The notes under the pieces: generated by a model | Database searches by the model: none | What the model was told of the DNA's origin: nothing | Seen by the model: the letters and a program-made list of their open reading frames with translations, nothing else | Program-made: the position numbers and the translations under genes | Shown here: piece after piece, positions 64-53,477 of the stretch | How positions within the stretch are numbered: the first letter of the stretch is position 1 | How the letters are laid out: each line of letters starts with the position of its first letter | Assembly (NCBI GenBank): GCA_964016885.1 | Contig: OZ024747.1 | Span: forward strand, 46,686,001-46,750,000 | Source of the DNA: Eledone cirrhosa | Taxonomy: Eukaryota | DNA length: 64,000 nucleotides | Reading direction: 5' to 3'

Positions 64-1887
64 ATGGAAAAACGAAATGAAAACGTAAAAACGAATTCAT
101 ATTCAAACAACACAAATGACACCAAACAATTCAATGACAACAAAAATAACAGCAACACCAATAATGATGATAAAAGTAACACTGATAACAACAACAAAGA
201 AAAAAATAAAGACAACACCAACAACACCAGCATCAAAGACAACAACAACACCAAGGAAAATACGGATGATACCAACATCGGTGACAACAAGAATAACAAC
301 AACAATAACAACAATAATGACAACACCACCAATACGGATTCCACAAAGAAACCAAAATCTCCTTTGCAGAGAAAGTTCAAAAGAAGGAAGAATTGATATA
401 TCTCGACATAACAAATGCTGAACAACTTTTAAAGGACGCTAAGAGATATGTCACTTTCGAAAAAAAATGGTGCTTTCAGCATCAATTCTCCGGTAGAAAT
501 TCGCAAGGAAACTGCTCTCAAAACGATAGTTTTTAGGACTGTTTCCAATTCTACCCGAAAACCAGTCCAACTGTCACAGAAAGAAATTGAACTGGTTTTC
601 AAAAATTCAATGAATGATATTGCATTCATTCAAAGAAGCAAACTTTTTGGGAGTTTTTCGGTACTCATGAAGGATCAATTGACGGCCCAAAATTACTCTG
701 TGTCGCCAATTGTATCCAACCTGTACACCTTTTTCCCTACATACATGGGAAAAAGGACACAAAAGATCAGAATCACGAGTGTCACACCAAAGGTGAACAT
801 ATGGTGGACACTGTGCGGCTTCATCAATTTTGATGAAGACAGAATACTGTCAGTAGGAAAGTCCCCCAGAGATGTATTCAATGGGACTAGCATTGAAGTT
901 CTGGTGCAAATGAGCCCAGAGCGAATAGCTATGATCCCACAGCGTGTACTCCTGGACGGACTCACCTACATAAACTTTTCGGTTGAGGGTAGGCGGCCTT
1001 CATGTTACCATTGCTTTAGCAGGGGTCACCTGAGGGCTTCCTGTCCTAAATTAATGAACCAAAAAAAGGCTCTTCTGCCGACACCCATCAAAACAACACA
1101 ACCACCAACACCACCACAACAACAACAACACCAACACACAAAAATAACCACAACAAACACAGTCCCACCCAACCCCACTCCACCTAAAACCACTGCAAAA
1201 TCACATACAGACACCACAGCTCCCCAAGACATACCTCTCCCCAATCACACAGACGATATAACAGATGAGGCTATCTCGCCATCACCCAGTGAAGACGAGG
1301 GAGAACCCCATCGCTCGAAAAGAAAGAAAAGACATCACAAAAGCAAAAAACCAGCAAACACTACCACAAACATACAACCACCAACACAAACAACAAAAAC
1401 ATCACAAACCAAACTCCCACCTCCTGAAAACAAAATACCTACAACAAAACGAAAGCACACACAAGAACTACAGACAAAAACAAACACAACACAAGAAAAT
1501 TACACTTACACTTACATAAACACTGAAAACAAAACACTAATGGAGACTATTACGAACGACCCTTCGGTGAAAACCGAAGGGAAAACTTTCGCCCACTCTA
1601 TTAAAAATAGCAAAAAACTGAACCTAAAACTGATTCGGGTCCCTATACAAACTTATAGGTCCCTAAAAGAAACATTTGAGAAGGATGTGGGGAATTCCTG
1701 CGTGAAACCACTCAACCGCGTCCTTCTCAAATGCCTCCCCACCCCAGACACCCCCATCCCACCAGACACCACCCCACCAAACATCTGCGTCCCCACCCCG
1801 CCGGAAACCACCACCCTTCCAGACAACCCCTCCAACACCCCCATGGAAATCGTGCGGCCTGGTCCCCATGAGGCGAAGGGTGAGTGA
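64..1887 (+). pseudogene. LINE ORF1 (gag-like nucleic-acid-binding protein); 448-1887 open, Asn-rich N-terminus 64-396 joined via two compensating frameshifts
   Basis: Zinc knuckle CYHCFSRGHLRASC and Pro/Thr-rich C-terminus. ORFs 64-396 and 448-1887 share a frame and are bridged by an open frame-3 segment 381-464 (KKEELIYLDITNAEQLLKDAKRYVTFEK) bounded by A-runs. Confidence 0.8.
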
Positions 1888-1920
1888 TCTCTTTTCCTCT
1901 TTTAACTTTTCAACACCAAC

Positions 1921-4900
1921 ATGGCCGATATAAGAGTTGGATGTGTGAACGTACGCGGCCTGGGGGTGCCTTGGAAACAGGGCAAACTCTTAAACGACCT
2001 CAGGTCGCACAGTATGGATGTGGTAGCCATTTGCGAGTCCAGGATCCACGGCGAGCGACAGCTGGCCTCCATCTTCGATGACTTTGAGATCTACGCATCT
2101 CTCTGTCAACCGGGGGGGGGGGGCGGAGTTGCCGTTTTGCCGCGGAAACACCTGGGCCTCGTAACACAGACGGTACATCTGGACCCGGAGGGTCGACTGG
2201 TGGTCCTAGACGTTGACGGTAGTGAAGGTGGAACCTTCAGGCTGGTGGCCGCATATGCCCCATCCGGGACACCGCGGCCAGACTTCTTCAGACGTCTAGA
2301 GACTTTTCTGGGAACGTCCCGCTCCTTGCTTTTAGTAGGGGACTGGAATGGAATCCTAGATGCACGTTGGGACTATGTGGGAGCATGTCCCGATAAAGGG
2401 GGTGTAACAGCCTCAAACAGTTAATCGACCGATTTGACCTGGCCGATAGATATCGACTAGATTTTCCGACTGCGCCACTGTGGACGTAGAGTAATCGTAG
2501 CTGAAAATCTAGATCGTACCTAGATAGGGTTCTAGTTAGAAATAAGGATAGGGACATTTTAAGCTGTCCACAAATGTTCATGGTTGCCTATTCAGATCAC
2601 AAACTAGTGACCTGCATGGCCAACCTTGATAGAACCCATAGACAAGGACCCGGCTACTGGAAGCTGAACTTGTCGTTACTGACAAGCAAAGCCTACAGTA
2701 GACGGATTAGCACTTTAGTTAAACAGCACTTGACAGGGGCCATTGTCAACAACAGATGGTGGTACTCTCTCAAGAGGGCAGTTAGATTAGACTCGATAGT
2801 TTTTAGTAAAGAATTAGCGTTAGATAGAAATAGAACCGAGAAGGAACTGGTAGATAAAGTAGAAGAGGCAATTAGAAGTGGCAACGTAGCCAGCGTGCTA
2901 GCAACGAGAACGGCCTTGGACCAGTTCTTCGACGCAAAGCACGAGGGCTGCGTTGTCAGAAGCAAAATACGTGCTCTGGGAAACGAGGGAGCCAAAGCTG
3001 TTAGCTGGGCCCGAGTGACGGAGGAAAAAAGTGGCAACAAGTCCACGATTCGGTCTTTGAAAGACCAAAATGGACGCGTCATACGTGAGCTGAAGCAGAT
3101 GTGTGCGGCTTTTCAGCGGCACTTTGCTCGGGGGGGGGGGGGGGGGGGGGCTATGGATTTCGGTCCATACCTCGACGGCCTACCGCGACTCTCGGACAGC
3201 GAGGCAAAGTTCTGCGAAAAGCCGATTTCAGCCACTGAGATAGGGGACGCGCCGAGCCAATGCGGCAAACGCAAATCTCCAGGTCTCGACGGTCTACCCT
3301 ACGAATTTTACGTAGCAATGCCGGACTTATTCTCCGGTCTCCTGGAAGCGGTCTACTGCAACTGGCAACAGAACGGGAGAATTCCCAGTTCTGTAACCGG
3401 GGGCGTGGTCACACTAATCAGGAAAGATGAGAATAAGGGGGATGACATAGGAAACTTCCGGCCCATAACTCTGCTAAACACAGAGTTACAGATTTTGGCC
3501 AAGGTGTCGGCAAAGAGGCTGGCGCTTGTCGTCGAGAACCTGGTGGGAGAAGCGCAGACATGCGCAATCCCGACCAGGTCCATACACGACAACCTCCACC
3601 TCATGCGATACATCATAGAGAGGGTAGAGTGTAAACCCGGCTTCGGTGGGGCCCTGATCAACTTGGATCAGTCTAAGGCTTTCGATAGGGTTGACCATCG
3701 TTACCTGGATGCGGTGCTCGAGGCGGCAGGCTTCGGACCCGTGTTCAGGGGCTGGATTGCTGCAATGCACAACAGCAACATCTGCTCAAGGGTCAAGGTG
3801 AACGGCTGCCTCTCGGAGCCGTTCCATATTACGCGATCCATTCGACAGGGATGCTCTCTCTCCTCCCTTCTGTACGTACTGACTCTCGAGCCACTACTGC
3901 GGAAGCTGGAGCTATTGCAGGGCATCCCTCTGGAACCTGGACTGCGCAAAGCGGCGTCGGCCTACGCCGACGACGTTACAGTAATGGTGTCGAGCGCCTC
4001 GCAAATCGAGGAAGTCGGCACCTTACTGAAGGAATACGAAAGTCTCACAGGAGCGAAGCTGAACCGGGACAAGTCCATCGGTTTGCAACTCGGATCGTGG
4101 AGAGGCAAACCGATGCCTTCCGATGGCGTCGTCGGACGCTGGACGGAAGGACCGGTAAAGCTGCTCGGGGTCTGGTTTGGTCCGGACCTCCAGGTGGAGA
4201 AGAACTGGAACGAAATGACGGCCAAGGTGTTTGCACTCACCCAGAAGTGGGCGGAGTGCAAACTATCCTTGAAAGGTCGAGCGGAGGCGGCGAACACTTT
4301 TATAGCGTCCGCCATCTACTACTGCTTGACCGTCGTGCCTTGTCCAGCCAAAACGCTCGCCAAAATGGAGCGCGCGCTCTTCCGATTCCTTTGGAAGAGG
4401 CGGGCTCCTTTGGTGAGAAGATCCATCTACTGCCAACACCCTTCTAACGGAGGGCTGGGGATGGCGTGGTTGACGATGCGCAAACACGCGCTCAGGCTGC
4501 GGCATCTCTACGTATTCCTCACCGGACAACCGGTGTGGGCCCCGTTCGTGAGGCGAGCCTTCCCACGACTCGTCTAGCTGACCGAGCTGCAGTCCTGGGT
4601 CAAGCAAAAACCGAGGAAAATGGGCGACTGGCACATCGAATGTGCTCAGGCGCTCACAGCCCTCTGGCAGGCGGACCCGGCGATCAGTGGAGACTCCACT
4701 TCGTCATTCTATAGAGGGTTGGTCCGCAGCAAGTGCGACGACGCGCTCGGTGAAACTCTAGGCGTAGAGGAAGATGAACTGGTCAGTCTGTTCGGTAGGA
4801 CCTTCCGCCCTGTACCGATGGACAACTTCCAAAATTTCTTGGCCTGGCAGTGCTACCGAGGAGCTCTACCAGTTCGAAACAAGCTCTACAGACATGGGCG

Positions 4901-5345
4901 CCCGGGCAGGGACCCTGCAAAAAAGATCTGTCCCAGGTGCGTGCGAGACGAAGAAACCGTCGCGCACGCATTCATACACTGCCCGGGCGTCACTGACCTG
5001 TGGGGCTATGTAGAACGACTATTGTCGCGGGTGGGACCAATCCAGTTGACCACCGAGTCCATTGTCATGATCAAACCGCCACCCTCCTTCAAAAACGAAG
5101 GAGAGGCGGTTTTCCTTTGTGTGATAGCTATGGCGAAAGAGGTTGTATGGTGGACAAGGTTGAAAGGGCTGAGGTCAGACACCTTTCTCTCCGGCCAACA
5201 ACTGATTCTTTTTTTCAAATACCACTTTGGAAGAAGAATCAGGATGGAGAGAGAGGTGCTGTACCCCAGCAAGTTTTATGAAAGGTGGGTGAAAGTGGTG
5301 AGAATGGCCCGAGTGAATGGGCCTTCTCTCTATATCAGCCTGTAG
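1921..5345 (+). pseudogene. LINE ORF2 (APE endonuclease + reverse transcriptase + CCHC), one frameshift and three premature stops
   Basis: Endonuclease motifs NVRG, CES, GDWN, LDR, SDH. RT motifs KSPGLDGLPYEFY, FRPITLLN, LDQSKAFDRVDH, RQGCSLS, AYADD, GGLG. C-terminal CPRC..H...C. Frameshift near 2400; stops TAG 2487, TGA 2502, TAG 4575. Confidence 0.93.
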
Positions 5346-25984: not shown

Positions 25985-26537
25985 ATATTCCACGGGTTCT
26001 ACACCACTGGTCACACACTCCAGACATCCACCTTCTTATACTCGGATTTTTCACCATCTCTCCATACACTCACCGGGAAAACATTCAGGAACACACACAC
26101 ACACAAACACTTACACTATTTTCGCATACATGCAACCATACGTTCCCACGTATCCACACCACACAAAAACACACATAGACACACATACACACACGTACAC
26201 CTACAAACAAACACACACACCGCCTTCCACCCTCTCCGCTCGGACCCCTGTCTCCTTCCTCCTCTACCACCGATCCACCCGCCACCACCCCTACACGCCT
26301 CACACCCTTTCACCACTTGTTTGATTTTAATTTTTTTAGCCTGTTTTTAATTTGTTTTCCTTCCCCTTTTAATTACTTTCCACCACTCCCTCTCACACCC
26401 TCGGAACTCTTTTCCTTCCTACTTTTCTTCAGATTAAGGGCTTATGCCCCCCCCCCCCTACACTCAAGCGTGAACCTAATACTAACATTTTTTACTGCAC
26501 TCTTTGTTATTGTTTTTGTGTTTCTGTTTTAACTTAT

Positions 26538-26568
<31 letters not shown>

Positions 26569-26879
26569 AGTTGAAAAAAAAAAAATGAAAACGAAATTTC
26601 ATTTCTCACTCTTAGTATGGCACTTACTTAAAAGTAAGTATGTATGTATACGTACATACATATATGTATACAGACGTACAGTAGCATGCACATGTATATA
26701 TATATATATATACACATATGCATACAGGTACACATACATATATGCACGCATCAGTTTAGCCGACGTTTATTATAACGTCGCTTTGTTTCGTTTGTTTGTC
26801 AACAAACCGAACAGCCTGAATTTATGCCATACGGTGTTAAGGCAACCACGTCACTTTTTTGTTCAACACTGACACAGGA

Positions 26880-26922
26880 ACGATGTACTAGTTTCAAGCT
26901 TGTTAGTTATCATCAGCACCGT
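26880..26922 (-). ncRNA. Type I hammerhead ribozyme, canonical core (one stem II mismatch)
   Basis: ACGGUG-CUGAUGA-UAACU(AACA)AGCUU-GAAA-CUAG-UA-CAUCGU. Confidence 0.75.
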
Positions 26923-27194
26923 TTACCCATCTGCCAGATAGTTGAACGTTCGAAAGTATATACTTTCCTTATGAAAATTAATGGCTGAGCAGCCTAATTT
27001 GCATATTGAGTGAGTTAAATCGGTCAGGCATACCGAACACGATAAGTTGAAAAAAAAAAAATCAAAACGAAATGTCATTTCTCACTCTTAGTATGGCACT
27101 TACTTAAAAGTAAGTATGTATATATACGTACATACATATATGTATACAGACGTACAGTAGCATGCACATGTATATATATATATATATATATATT

Positions 27195-27265
<71 letters not shown>

Positions 27266-27424
27266 GCATACAGGTACACATACATATATGCACGCATTAG
27301 TTTAGCCGACGTTTATTATAACGTCGCTTTGTTCGTTTGTTTGTCAACAAACCGAACAGCCTGAATTTTTGCCATACGGTGTTATGGCAACCACGTCACC
27401 TTTTTGTTCAACACTGACACAGGA

Positions 27425-27467
27425 ACGATGTACTAGTTTCAAGCTTGTTAGCTATCATCAGCACCGT
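27425..27467 (-). ncRNA. Type I hammerhead ribozyme, canonical core
   Basis: ACGGUG-CUGAUGA-UAGCU(AACA)AGCUU-GAAA-CUAG-UA-CAUCGU. Confidence 0.87.
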
Positions 27468-27902
27468 TTACCCATCTGCCAGATAGTTGAACGTTCGAAA
27501 GTATATACTTTCCTTATGAAAATTAATGGCTGAGCAGCCTAATTTGCATATTGAGTGAGTTAAATTGGTCAGGCATACCGAAAACGATAAGTTGAAAAAA
27601 AAAAATGTAAACGAAATTTCATTTCTTACTCTTAGTATGGCACTTACTTAAAAGTAAGTATGTATGTATACGTACATACATATATGTATACAGACGTACA
27701 GTAGCATGCACATGTATATATATATATATATATATACACATATGCATACAGGTACACATACATATATGCACGCATCAGTTTAGCCGACGTTTATTATAAC
27801 GTCGCTTTGTTCGTTTGTTTGTCAACAAACCGAAAAGCCTGAATTTATGCCATACGGTGTTAAGGCAACCACGTCACCTTTTTGTTCAACACTGACACAG
27901 GA

Positions 27903-27945
27903 ACGATGTACTAGTTTCAAGCTTGTTAGCTATCATCAGCACCGT
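27903..27945 (-). ncRNA. Type I hammerhead ribozyme, canonical core
   Basis: Identical motif to 27425-27467. Confidence 0.87.
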
Positions 27946-28011
27946 TTACCCATCTGCCAGATAGTTGAACGCTAAACTGATGCGTGCATATATGTATGTG
28001 TACCTGTATGC

Positions 28012-28050
<39 letters not shown>

Positions 28051-28074
28051 CATGCTACTGTACGTCTGTATACA

Positions 28075-28163
<89 letters not shown>

Positions 28164-28251: not shown

Positions 28252-28657
28252 TAGGGCGGTGGATTGGCAGTATCGGTAGAGGGTCGGACGCTCTGCTTTA
28301 ACGCACAGAGTTACGGCCCTTGCCATTCTGACTTCGAATTCCGTCGAGGTTAACTTTGCCTTTCATCCTTACGGGGTCGATAAAATAATGTACCAGTAAT
28401 ATACTGGGGTCGATTTAATCGACTTACCCCTCCCCCAAAACTGCTGGCCTCGTGTCTATTTAAGAAACCATGGAATGGCAGTATCGGTAGAGGGTCGGAC
28501 GCCATGCTTTGACTCATAGAGTTACGCCCCTTGCCATTCTGAGTTCAAATCCCGCGGAGGTTAACTTTGCCTTTCATCCTTACGGGGTCGATAAAATAAA
28601 GTACCTGTAATGCACTGGGTAATTGCTGGCCTTGTGCCAAAAGTAGAAACAATTATG
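28252..28657 (+). mobile_element. Two tandem SINE family A copies
   Basis: GGGCGGTGGATTGGCAG head, B-box, GCCTTTCATCCTTACGGGGTCGATAAAAT body. Further copies at 35758-35930(-), 41393-41497(+), 49537-49711(-), 50119-50300(+). Confidence 0.85.
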
Positions 28658-29758: not shown

Positions 29759-30047
29759 CCAGGGGGTGTAACTTGGAGTTACTGCAGGTTCACCCGGGGG
29801 GCACTCGATGTTTAGGTTTACTTCTGTGTCGAGGTGTAGAGCTATACAGAGTGTAGTATATTGAAAGGATAACAAGGACGATTGGTTACTCCTTCATTAC
29901 ATTTATTGGTAGGCTCCGTCGAGCTGCCGATCATTGAGTCGAGTAGGATCGATACAGATCGAACCTTGAGCTGATCAGTGGCGAAACGCGCGTCACCTAC
30001 CAATAAATGTAATGAAGGAGTAACCAATCGTCCTTGTCATCCTTTCA

Positions 30048-30050
<3 letters not shown>
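29759..30050. mobile_element. PLE-like fold-back element with HHR-like motif at 29908-30001(+) (core CCGUCGA)
   Basis: Arms ~29858-29913 / 29996-30050; stem II GCUGCCGAUCA/UGAUCAGUGGC, then GAAA-CGCGCG-UC. Homolog at 46320-46570(-). Confidence 0.7.
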
Positions 30051-30123
<73 letters not shown>

Positions 30124-30127
<4 letters not shown>

Positions 30128-30322
30128 CGAAGGAAGTGTGGTAACGAACCAGATGGGCCATAACGCACCAGAGTACTCAATACTTAGGGTAGTAGAGTGG
30201 GTAATAGGAAAATGTTTAACCCCGACGGCAGGGCTCAAACCGTTTCAACGGCTATTTCTGGTCAGAAATAGCCGTCGAAACGGCTTGAGCCCTGCCGTCG
30301 CGGTTAAACATTTTCCTATTAT
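30124..30322. mobile_element. PLE-like fold-back element; both arms contain the 3' half of an HHR (GAAA-CGGC..GCCG-UC)
   Basis: Near-perfect palindrome 30202-30321 centred at ~30261; tail homolog at 55546-55635, fragment at 63168-63225. Confidence 0.7.
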
Positions 30323-30344
30323 ATAAATATATATATATATATAT

Positions 30345-30543
30345 AGTTTTAATAGAGATTCTACAGGACTAGAACTGTTTCATTCTTTAGAAAGCATCAG
30401 GAATCTCAGGGATTCTTGATGATTTCTAAAGAATGAAACAGTTCTAGTCCTGTAGAATCTCAACTATATTAAAACTTTTATACTCTGCTATGTATTGAGT
30501 ACCTTACTTACTGTGGTTACCTTCGATTCAACCCGGAATAACG
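30345..30543. mobile_element. PLE-like fold-back element with two back-to-back HHRs, 30355-30407(-) and 30409-30461(+)
   Basis: GAUUC-[CUGAUGC or UUGAUGA]-UUUC(UAAA)GAAU-GAAA-CAG..CUG-UA-GAAUC; tail homolog at 46586-46665(-). Confidence 0.8.
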
Positions 30544-53190: not shown

Positions 53191-53221
<31 letters not shown>

Positions 53222-53477
53222 GCTAATAAGTTGAAACTAGTACAGCGTTTCTTTGTCAGTGTTGAACAAACGAGCAACGGTGGTTGCTAGACACTGTACG
53301 ACTTAATTCGGGTTGTTTGTTTACAAACACACCGAGCATTATAATAAATGTTCGGTGAATCCATACGTACATATATATATATGTGTGCATGTATATATAT
53401 GTGTGCATGTATATATATACACATACTACTGTACGTCTGTATACATATATGTATATACGTATACGTACTTATATATA

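What the first reader, a model, noticed from the sequence alone, without database searches (positions are those of the whole stretch)
26566..28085. Tandem array of ~480-545-nt HHR units with an embedded variable (TA)n, capped by an inversion
Seen: about 2.8 near-identical head-to-tail units, each with a CUGAUGA HHR on the minus strand. Cleavage-to-cleavage spacings are 478 and 545 nt, the difference being mainly internal TA-repeat length. An inverted partial copy follows at 27971. Established: tandem HHR repeats are the architecture of animal non-LTR retrozymes and of tandem PLE pLTRs. Inference: read-through transcription would release monomers able to circularise, and the element carries its own microsatellite and could seed new (TA)n tracts.
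Basis: partly seen in the sequence, partly recalled or inferred. Interest (0 to 1): 0.75.

Follow-up and report, generated by a model that had tools for sequence, protein, structure and literature searches.

The report
Penelope-copied retrozyme carrying its own target
This array is one insertion of a small non-coding repeat whose predicted self-cutting RNA motif occurs about 28,000 times in this animal genome; it sits back-to-back in TA microsatellites with the same end pattern as the genome's Penelope-type jumping genes, which likely copy it, and the TA tract built into each unit has itself been a landing site for other mobile elements.

Summary
Observation confirmed: three minus-strand type I hammerheads, cut-to-cut 478 and 545 nt, the difference being the internal TA tract, plus an inverted piece from 27971. 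The array is one insertion of a family with 28,412 hammerhead matches genome-wide. The 'cap' is the second arm of a two-armed insertion. Across 41 loci, arms end at two fixed sites about 65 nt apart, almost always into (TA)n (57 of 59 ends; background 17%). A protein-coding Penelope-like element here (L146) shows the same footprint. Hammerhead stems covary between subfamilies. Arm 5' ends ignore the cut site (1 of 44). In a young sub-lineage most arrays carry their own TA-interruption pattern across units, so they descend from one unit. That fits reverse transcription round a circle, but mosaic arrays and local amplification also occur. Five of 222 internal TA tracts hold a foreign insertion. 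Not shown: transcription, cleavage, circles, or which element is the partner. No RNA-editing bias was found. It is a new member of the known animal non-LTR retrozymes; the scan found the same architecture before on other DNA of this genome.

The parts
26535..26567 (.). Left (TA)n target tract
   Evidence: TRF 26535-26568; 2-3 nt microhomology with the element end
26566..27971 (-). Long arm: 2.9 head-to-tail units (385, 545, 476 nt in order of transcription), ending at fixed 3' site 2 (with tail)
26568..26633 (-). About 65-nt 'tail' between 3' site 1 and 3' site 2, including the T-tract; present on this arm only
   Evidence: end classes in 41 loci; coordinates
27902..27946 (-). Type I hammerhead 1; predicted cut 27909/27908; palindromic helix III
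   Evidence: covariation
27424..27468 (-). Type I hammerhead 2; predicted cut 27431/27430
26879..26923 (-). Type I hammerhead 3 with a stem II mismatch; predicted cut 26886/26885
   Evidence: dimer fold -14.1 vs -20.8 kcal/mol
27715..27736 (-). Internal TA tract, first unit (22 nt)
27171..27258 (-). Internal TA tract, second unit (88 nt, one interruption)
26695..26712 (-). Internal TA tract, third unit (18 nt)
27497..27549 (-). Promoter-like block upstream of hammerhead 2: octamer 27542-27549 and TATA-containing hairpin 27497-27512 (repeated at 26997-27004 and 26952-26967); function inferred
   Evidence: positions; octamer kept in the diverged sister family and in L151, altered in the L152 unit aligned
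27971..28083 (+). Short inverted arm with its own TA tract (28019-28044), no tail, ending about 20-25 nt short of site 1
28084..28158 (.). Right (TA)n target tract

Best explanation
The array is one two-armed insertion of an abundant non-coding hammerhead repeat (a non-LTR retrozyme) whose arms end at two fixed sites inside (TA)n, likely written in by the reverse transcriptase and GIY-YIG endonuclease of a (TA)n-targeting Penelope-like element. Proposed cycle: (1, inferred) read-through transcription of an array; (2, predicted) pairs of hammerheads fold as a double ribozyme through the palindromic helix III and release unit-length RNA, which is ligated into a circle; (3, inferred from the footprint) the partner enzyme cuts both strands of a (TA)n tract and each DNA end primes reverse transcription, one at site 1 and one at site 2; (4, inferred, about 55-60%) the enzyme runs repeatedly round one monomer, so each new array is a clone of one unit; (5, shown as a footprint) the two products join 5'-to-5' at scattered points with 1-5 nt microhomology; (6, shown) the internal TA tract then slips in length and is sometimes hit by later insertions.
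For: Copy number 10,122 / 28,412 with controls 0 / 2. Of 71 arm ends in 41 loci, 35 are site 2 and 24 site 1; 57 of these 59 run into (TA)4 against 1348 of 8000 background windows. Of 24 loci with one arm per strand, 15 pair site 1 with site 2 and none pair site 2 with site 2. 22 of 41 loci have a divergent arm junction, 16 of 22 with 1-5 nt overlap. Coding element L146 (C-terminal GIY-YIG frame) is two-armed, one arm with and one without a roughly 50-nt tail, both into TA-rich repeat. The tail as the span between two RT start sites is described as unique to Penelope-like elements (PMC11167929). Five of 12 hammerhead pairs change on both sides across 7 sequences, 0 of 500 shuffles. The double-hammerhead fold is within 1 kcal/mol of the cofold minimum. 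Units differ by a median 0.4% within an arm, 0.3% across arms and 3.9% between loci. In one young sub-lineage (15 arrays, 107 units) TA-block length differs by a median 2 nt within and 12 nt between arrays, with array-specific interruption patterns, e.g. 8 of 8 units in L174, 5 of 5 in L183, 11 of 16 over both arms in L171.
Against: No RNA evidence and no cleavage test. No autonomous partner shares sequence with the unit (50 loci examined; only 150 of 10,597 GIY-YIG candidates were scored). Variants that looked private to one array are sub-lineage markers (271 matches; 11 matches at 5 loci), so a uniform array can be inherited from a uniform parent. Mosaic arrays exist: in L230 three of five consecutive units carry a 4-nt duplication, and in L232 it is in one arm only (these loci were picked because they carried the variant); L172 and L182 are also mixed. 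A long array on C4 shows higher-order local duplication. In the tested Penelope-like element the hammerhead was dispensable for insertion and cut only with protein (PMC11167929). A single hammerhead here is predicted to misfold. The covariation count rests on few independent events, four of five from one sister family.
Confidence: 0.8

Rival explanations
1. Same Penelope-type machinery, but the template is an uncleaved linear multimer transcript; array uniformity comes from uniform parents and from local tandem amplification, and the hammerhead is not needed for copying.
For: Mosaic arrays L230, L231, L232, L233; higher-order duplication on C4; shared variants are not private; L151 shows a unit carried along inside a re-mobilised coding element, which needs a linear read-through RNA; hammerhead mutants did not affect insertion in vitro (PMC11167929).
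Against: About ten different TA alleles among 20 loci of one sub-lineage, most fixed across a whole array and several across both arms, need repeated single-unit bottlenecks; arrays reach 22 near-identical units (L178); hammerhead structure is conserved by covariation.
Confidence: 0.33
2. The units are leftover pseudo-LTRs of a 5'-truncated autonomous Penelope-like element, not an independent element.
For: Tandem and inverted truncated copies are typical of such elements (PMC8557442).
Against: Each unit joins directly to the next; no copy is joined to a coding frame in 50 GIY-YIG loci or in the candidate long-spacing loci checked; subfamilies with their own unit lengths have evolved.
Confidence: 0.07
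3. A local satellite or an assembly artefact at TA-rich palindromic DNA.
For: No contig of the public runs laid was listed as bridging this particular junction (holes prove nothing).
Against: Units differ by their own point changes; the same two-end rule holds at dozens of loci with different junction points; the unit is present in contigs of public runs from two studies (X1, X5, X6); the closest sibling array lies on another chromosome (L191).
Confidence: 0.03

Closest known systems
Metazoan non-LTR retrozymes (Cervera and de la Pena 2020, PMC7229834: passages and Discussion read; Li, Clavereau and Pollet 2026, 10.64898/2026.07.22.740005: part 1 of 5, passages and Discussion read)
   Same: Non-coding head-to-tail repeats, one type I hammerhead per unit, low GC, thousands of dispersed copies; U-U at the base of stem II as in axolotl HHR_Amex2; Penelope-like elements proposed as partners; circle-templated tandem cDNA proposed.
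   Different: Unit 420-545 nt, at or above the 150-450 bp range given; embedded variable (TA)n that is the target sequence itself; two-armed insertions with two fixed 3' ends and (TA)n targeting are not described for retrozymes in the passages read; expression and circles are shown there and untested here.
EN+ Penelope-like elements with (TA)n preference: Neptune, Hydra, Naiad (Craig et al. 2021, PMC8557442, passages read); PAc mechanism (Frangieh et al. 2024, PMC11167929, parts 1-2 of 4 read)
   Same: Partial tandems, inverted 5'-truncated second copy, tail on one end only, (TA)n insertion, hammerhead upstream of the RT start sites.
   Different: No coding frame; tail about 65 nt rather than 30-40; many more tandem units; which clade supplies the enzyme was not determined.
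Non-autonomous Chlamys elements such as MRC1 (PMC8557442, passage read)
   Same: Non-autonomous Penelope-type elements with multicopy head-to-tail insertions.
   Different: Those resemble their autonomous partner at the 3' end and most Chlamys lack canonical hammerheads; here a hammerhead is present and no sequence partner was found.
Minimal hammerheads of Penelope-like elements (Cervera and de la Pena 2014, PMC4209133, part 1 of 4 read)
   Same: Type I fold, very short palindromic helix III predicted to need a dimer, extra unpaired base at the 5' side of stem II.
   Different: Helix I (7 bp) and II (4 bp) here have canonical rather than minimal-type lengths.

Membership tests
Non-LTR retrozyme | Short head-to-tail repeat, non-coding, no LTR structure | tested here: met
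   Units of 476-545 nt; no ORF of 120 aa or more listed over 26566-28085
Non-LTR retrozyme | Type I hammerhead in consecutive units | tested here: met
   Three motifs, two intact; covariation 5 of 12 pairs; Rfam below gathering score
Non-LTR retrozyme | Dispersed, multi-locus copies as monomers to multimers | tested here: met
Non-LTR retrozyme | Self-cleavage of the RNA | not testable with these tools
   Only folding energies
Non-LTR retrozyme | Expression as linear and circular monomers | not testable with these tools
   No raw RNA reads were available
Penelope-mobilised element | Tail: two fixed 3' ends, usually on different ends of the insertion | tested here: met
   59 of 71 ends at two sites; 15 of 24 two-strand loci pair site 1 with site 2
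Penelope-mobilised element | Inverted 5'-truncated copy adjoining the 5' end | tested here: met
   22 of 41 loci
Penelope-mobilised element | (TA)n insertion bias as in Neptune, Hydra, Naiad | tested here: met
   57 of 59 ends vs 17% background
Penelope-mobilised element | Sequence similarity to an autonomous partner | tested here: inconclusive
   None in 50 loci, a small sample of 10,597 candidates
Autonomous Penelope-like element | Frame encoding RT and GIY-YIG between pseudo-LTRs | tested here: not met
   No such frame in the array or between units

The most novel reading that the evidence does not exclude
A ribozyme-made RNA circle is reverse-transcribed round and round from both ends of one Penelope-cut break, and because each unit carries an expanding copy of the enzyme's own (TA)n target, the element builds new landing sites for itself and for other Penelope-dependent elements; the internal tract doubles as a natural barcode for tracing parent and daughter arrays.
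Probability: 0.45. Interest if true: 0.72.

Novelty: new member of a known kind. Interest (0 to 1): 0.52.

Why it matters
The papers read propose, but do not show, that Penelope-like enzymes copy animal retrozymes from circular RNA. This family gives a countable genomic footprint for the first half of that idea (two fixed ends, two arms, same pattern as a coding element in the same genome) and a built-in barcode for testing the second half. It also shows a route by which a mobile element adds target microsatellites to a TA-rich genome.

Tried and rejected
Rfam scan: only microsatellite-driven microRNA matches among those listed and a sub-threshold hammerhead. Expression: no RNA holder listed; no conclusion drawn. 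Junction check in public contigs: no listed piece bridges 27971; uninformative. Arm 5' ends at the hammerhead cut: 1 of 44 within 5 nt, about 1 expected (one search was an unfiltered first pass with TA artefacts), so copying does not run off a cleaved linear end. Private-variant test for a single template molecule: failed, both haplotypes recur elsewhere. RNA-editing scars (lead from e1-8803865): 3 of 23 shared changes were A>G; 35 A>G against 36 T>C among 292 single-unit changes in 187 pieces; not supported in this family. Partner search: GIY-YIG family search and flanks, longer stem II variants and wide-spaced hammerhead pairs gave no coding element with this repeat; the three co-located copies (L125, L141, L142) are nested insertions or separate arrays. 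The monomer fold z-score of -12 was discounted because the TA block folds on itself. A snRNA-type promoter for newt satellite 2 is recalled; the search listed no paper that I read to confirm it.

Full report
Observation. The window lies in a 3.0-Gb animal genome rich in microsatellites; earlier scan notes call it a cephalopod, which I did not test. From 27971 down to 26566 the minus strand holds units of 385, 545 and 476 nt. Each has a type I hammerhead: 7-bp stem I, CUGAUGA, a U-U pair, 4-bp stem II, GAAA, a six-base palindrome and a GUA cut triplet. Predicted cuts give 478 and 545 nt; the 67-nt difference is 66 nt of internal TA plus 1 nt of the T-tract. The third motif has a stem II mismatch. 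An inverted piece runs 27971-28083. Both outer ends lie in (TA)n. Rfam gives only a sub-threshold match.

Family. An exact 40-nt hammerhead pattern has 10,122 matches (control 0); with N7 and stem II free, 28,412 (control 2). Subfamilies have units of about 420-430, 466-511 and more nt. A more distant 466-nt sister family, found inserted in L193, aligns along the whole unit. On 7 hammerheads chosen from the window, subfamilies and the sister, 5 of 12 pairs change on both sides, 0 of 500 shuffles, and slid controls are far lower; these are few independent events. The lone motif is predicted to misfold, while the double-hammerhead fold of copies 1 and 2 scores -20.8 against a cofold minimum of -21.7 kcal/mol, as expected for motifs with a palindromic helix III (PMC4209133).

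Ends. I took the first 40 clusters on contig C1 from the listing (so they are biased to intact hammerheads) plus the window. Of 71 arm ends, 35 fall at site 2, 24 at site 1 about 65 nt earlier, 6 inside the TA tract, 4 just after it and 2 elsewhere. 57 of the 59 site 1 or 2 ends run into (TA)4 within 24-34 nt, against 1348 of 8000 random 34-nt flank windows. Among 24 loci with one arm per strand, 15 pair site 1 with site 2, 4 pair site 2 with an end just after the TA tract (the window is one; its short arm stops 20-25 nt before site 1), 5 are other pairs, and none pairs site 2 with site 2. 22 of 41 loci have a divergent junction, 16 with 1-5 nt overlap; arm starts are scattered and 1 of 44 lies within 5 nt of the cut site. 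An inverted truncated copy, a tail on one end and (TA)n bias are the described marks of Penelope-like elements (PMC8557442), and the tail is the span between two RT start sites (PMC11167929). The genome holds many RT plus C-terminal GIY-YIG frames. L146, of that kind, is two-armed with the tail on one arm only; L134 and L130 end with the tail and L138 without; L142 and L131 show two ends in another family. None shares sequence with the unit in the 50 loci examined, so the partner is unidentified.

Template. Units differ by a median 0.4% within an arm, 0.3% across arms and 3.9% between loci (88 pieces). Apparent private variants recur elsewhere, so that test failed. The internal TA block is more telling. 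In 20 loci of the sub-lineage (19 taken from the first 100 of 271 matches, plus L064), 15 arrays with 107 units differ in block length by a median 2 nt within and 12 nt between arrays (4 nt across arms, 155 pairs), and most arrays have their own interruption pattern; L176 and L178 also carry point changes in all units of both arms that no other sampled locus has. In the older 40-locus set blocks span 42-186 nt and only 3 of 29 multi-unit loci are uniform, so slippage follows insertion. Repeated single-unit bottlenecks fit copying round a circle, as proposed in PMC7229834. Against a strict single-circle rule: mosaic arrays L230-L233, L172 and L182, higher-order local duplication on C4, and carriage of a unit inside a re-mobilised coding element (L151). 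I put the circle step at about 55-60%. The window's closest sampled sibling is L191 on C1, which shares its block ending and rare variants.

The TA tract. The sister family has an alternating hairpin without a long TA run at this place, the 420-430-nt subfamilies have 4-8 TA repeats, and the window's lineage 9-46, so the tract grew within the family. Of 222 internal tracts with both anchors in 83 loci, 5 contain an unrelated insertion (L061, L091, L097, L170, L193); L175 has one at the tract edge. The flanking tracts look like prior targets: L151 inserted at a non-TA site with a 9-bp duplication and no added TA. Empty sites were not examined.

Novelty. This is a new member of the animal non-LTR retrozymes. 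Searches listed no paper describing an octopus retrozyme or two-armed, tail-marked retrozyme insertions; an Octopus repeat annotation has no occurrence of 'ribozyme' in its main text (PMC13282606, passages). No supplements were read; supplementary file S1 of PMC8557442 and the closed supplements of the preprint may bear on this. Earlier scan notes report the same architecture for other families in this genome; I reached the two-end reading before looking, and their editing claim did not hold in this family. Transcription, cleavage and circles remain untested.

Noticed in passing
window 35229 (-) and 35416 (+): Inverted pair of another hammerhead-like motif with a long stem II; the same motif occurs in L134.
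   Followed up: partly
window 42293 (+) and 63690 (-): A third hammerhead-like family with a long stem II and TA-rich helix III.
   Followed up: no
window 36673 (+), 19294 (-), about 25740 (+): A fourth hammerhead-like motif in three copies, the one near the array with a changed core base.
   Followed up: no
window 433-5345 (+): Broken LINE: ORF1-like frame, endonuclease-like frame and an RT frame (RVT_1, E 1e-26).
   Followed up: partly
window 53219-53332: A diverged (77%) fragment of the same retrozyme family.
   Followed up: no
window 29858-30051, 30202-30321, 30350-30466: Three long near-perfect hairpins next to TA tracts; the 30202 type is also inserted in the internal TA tract of L061.
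   Followed up: partly
window 28260-28619: Two tandem copies of a tRNA-like SINE (identity recalled, not tested).
   Followed up: no
L151 5000-7600: A single-armed copy with a 9-bp target duplication inside a GIY-YIG coding element that was later re-inserted as two arms, carrying the copy along.
   Followed up: partly
L193 about 1900-3900 (-): Two-armed 466-nt sister retrozyme inserted into the internal TA tract of a copy of this family.
   Followed up: yes
L131 and L143 terminal repeats: Coding Penelope-like families whose hammerhead-like motif appears to have the U3-A8 core variant (read by eye).
   Followed up: no
L225-L226: More than 13 kb of tandem units with a higher-order duplication of about 4.5 kb: a retrozyme turned satellite.
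   Followed up: partly
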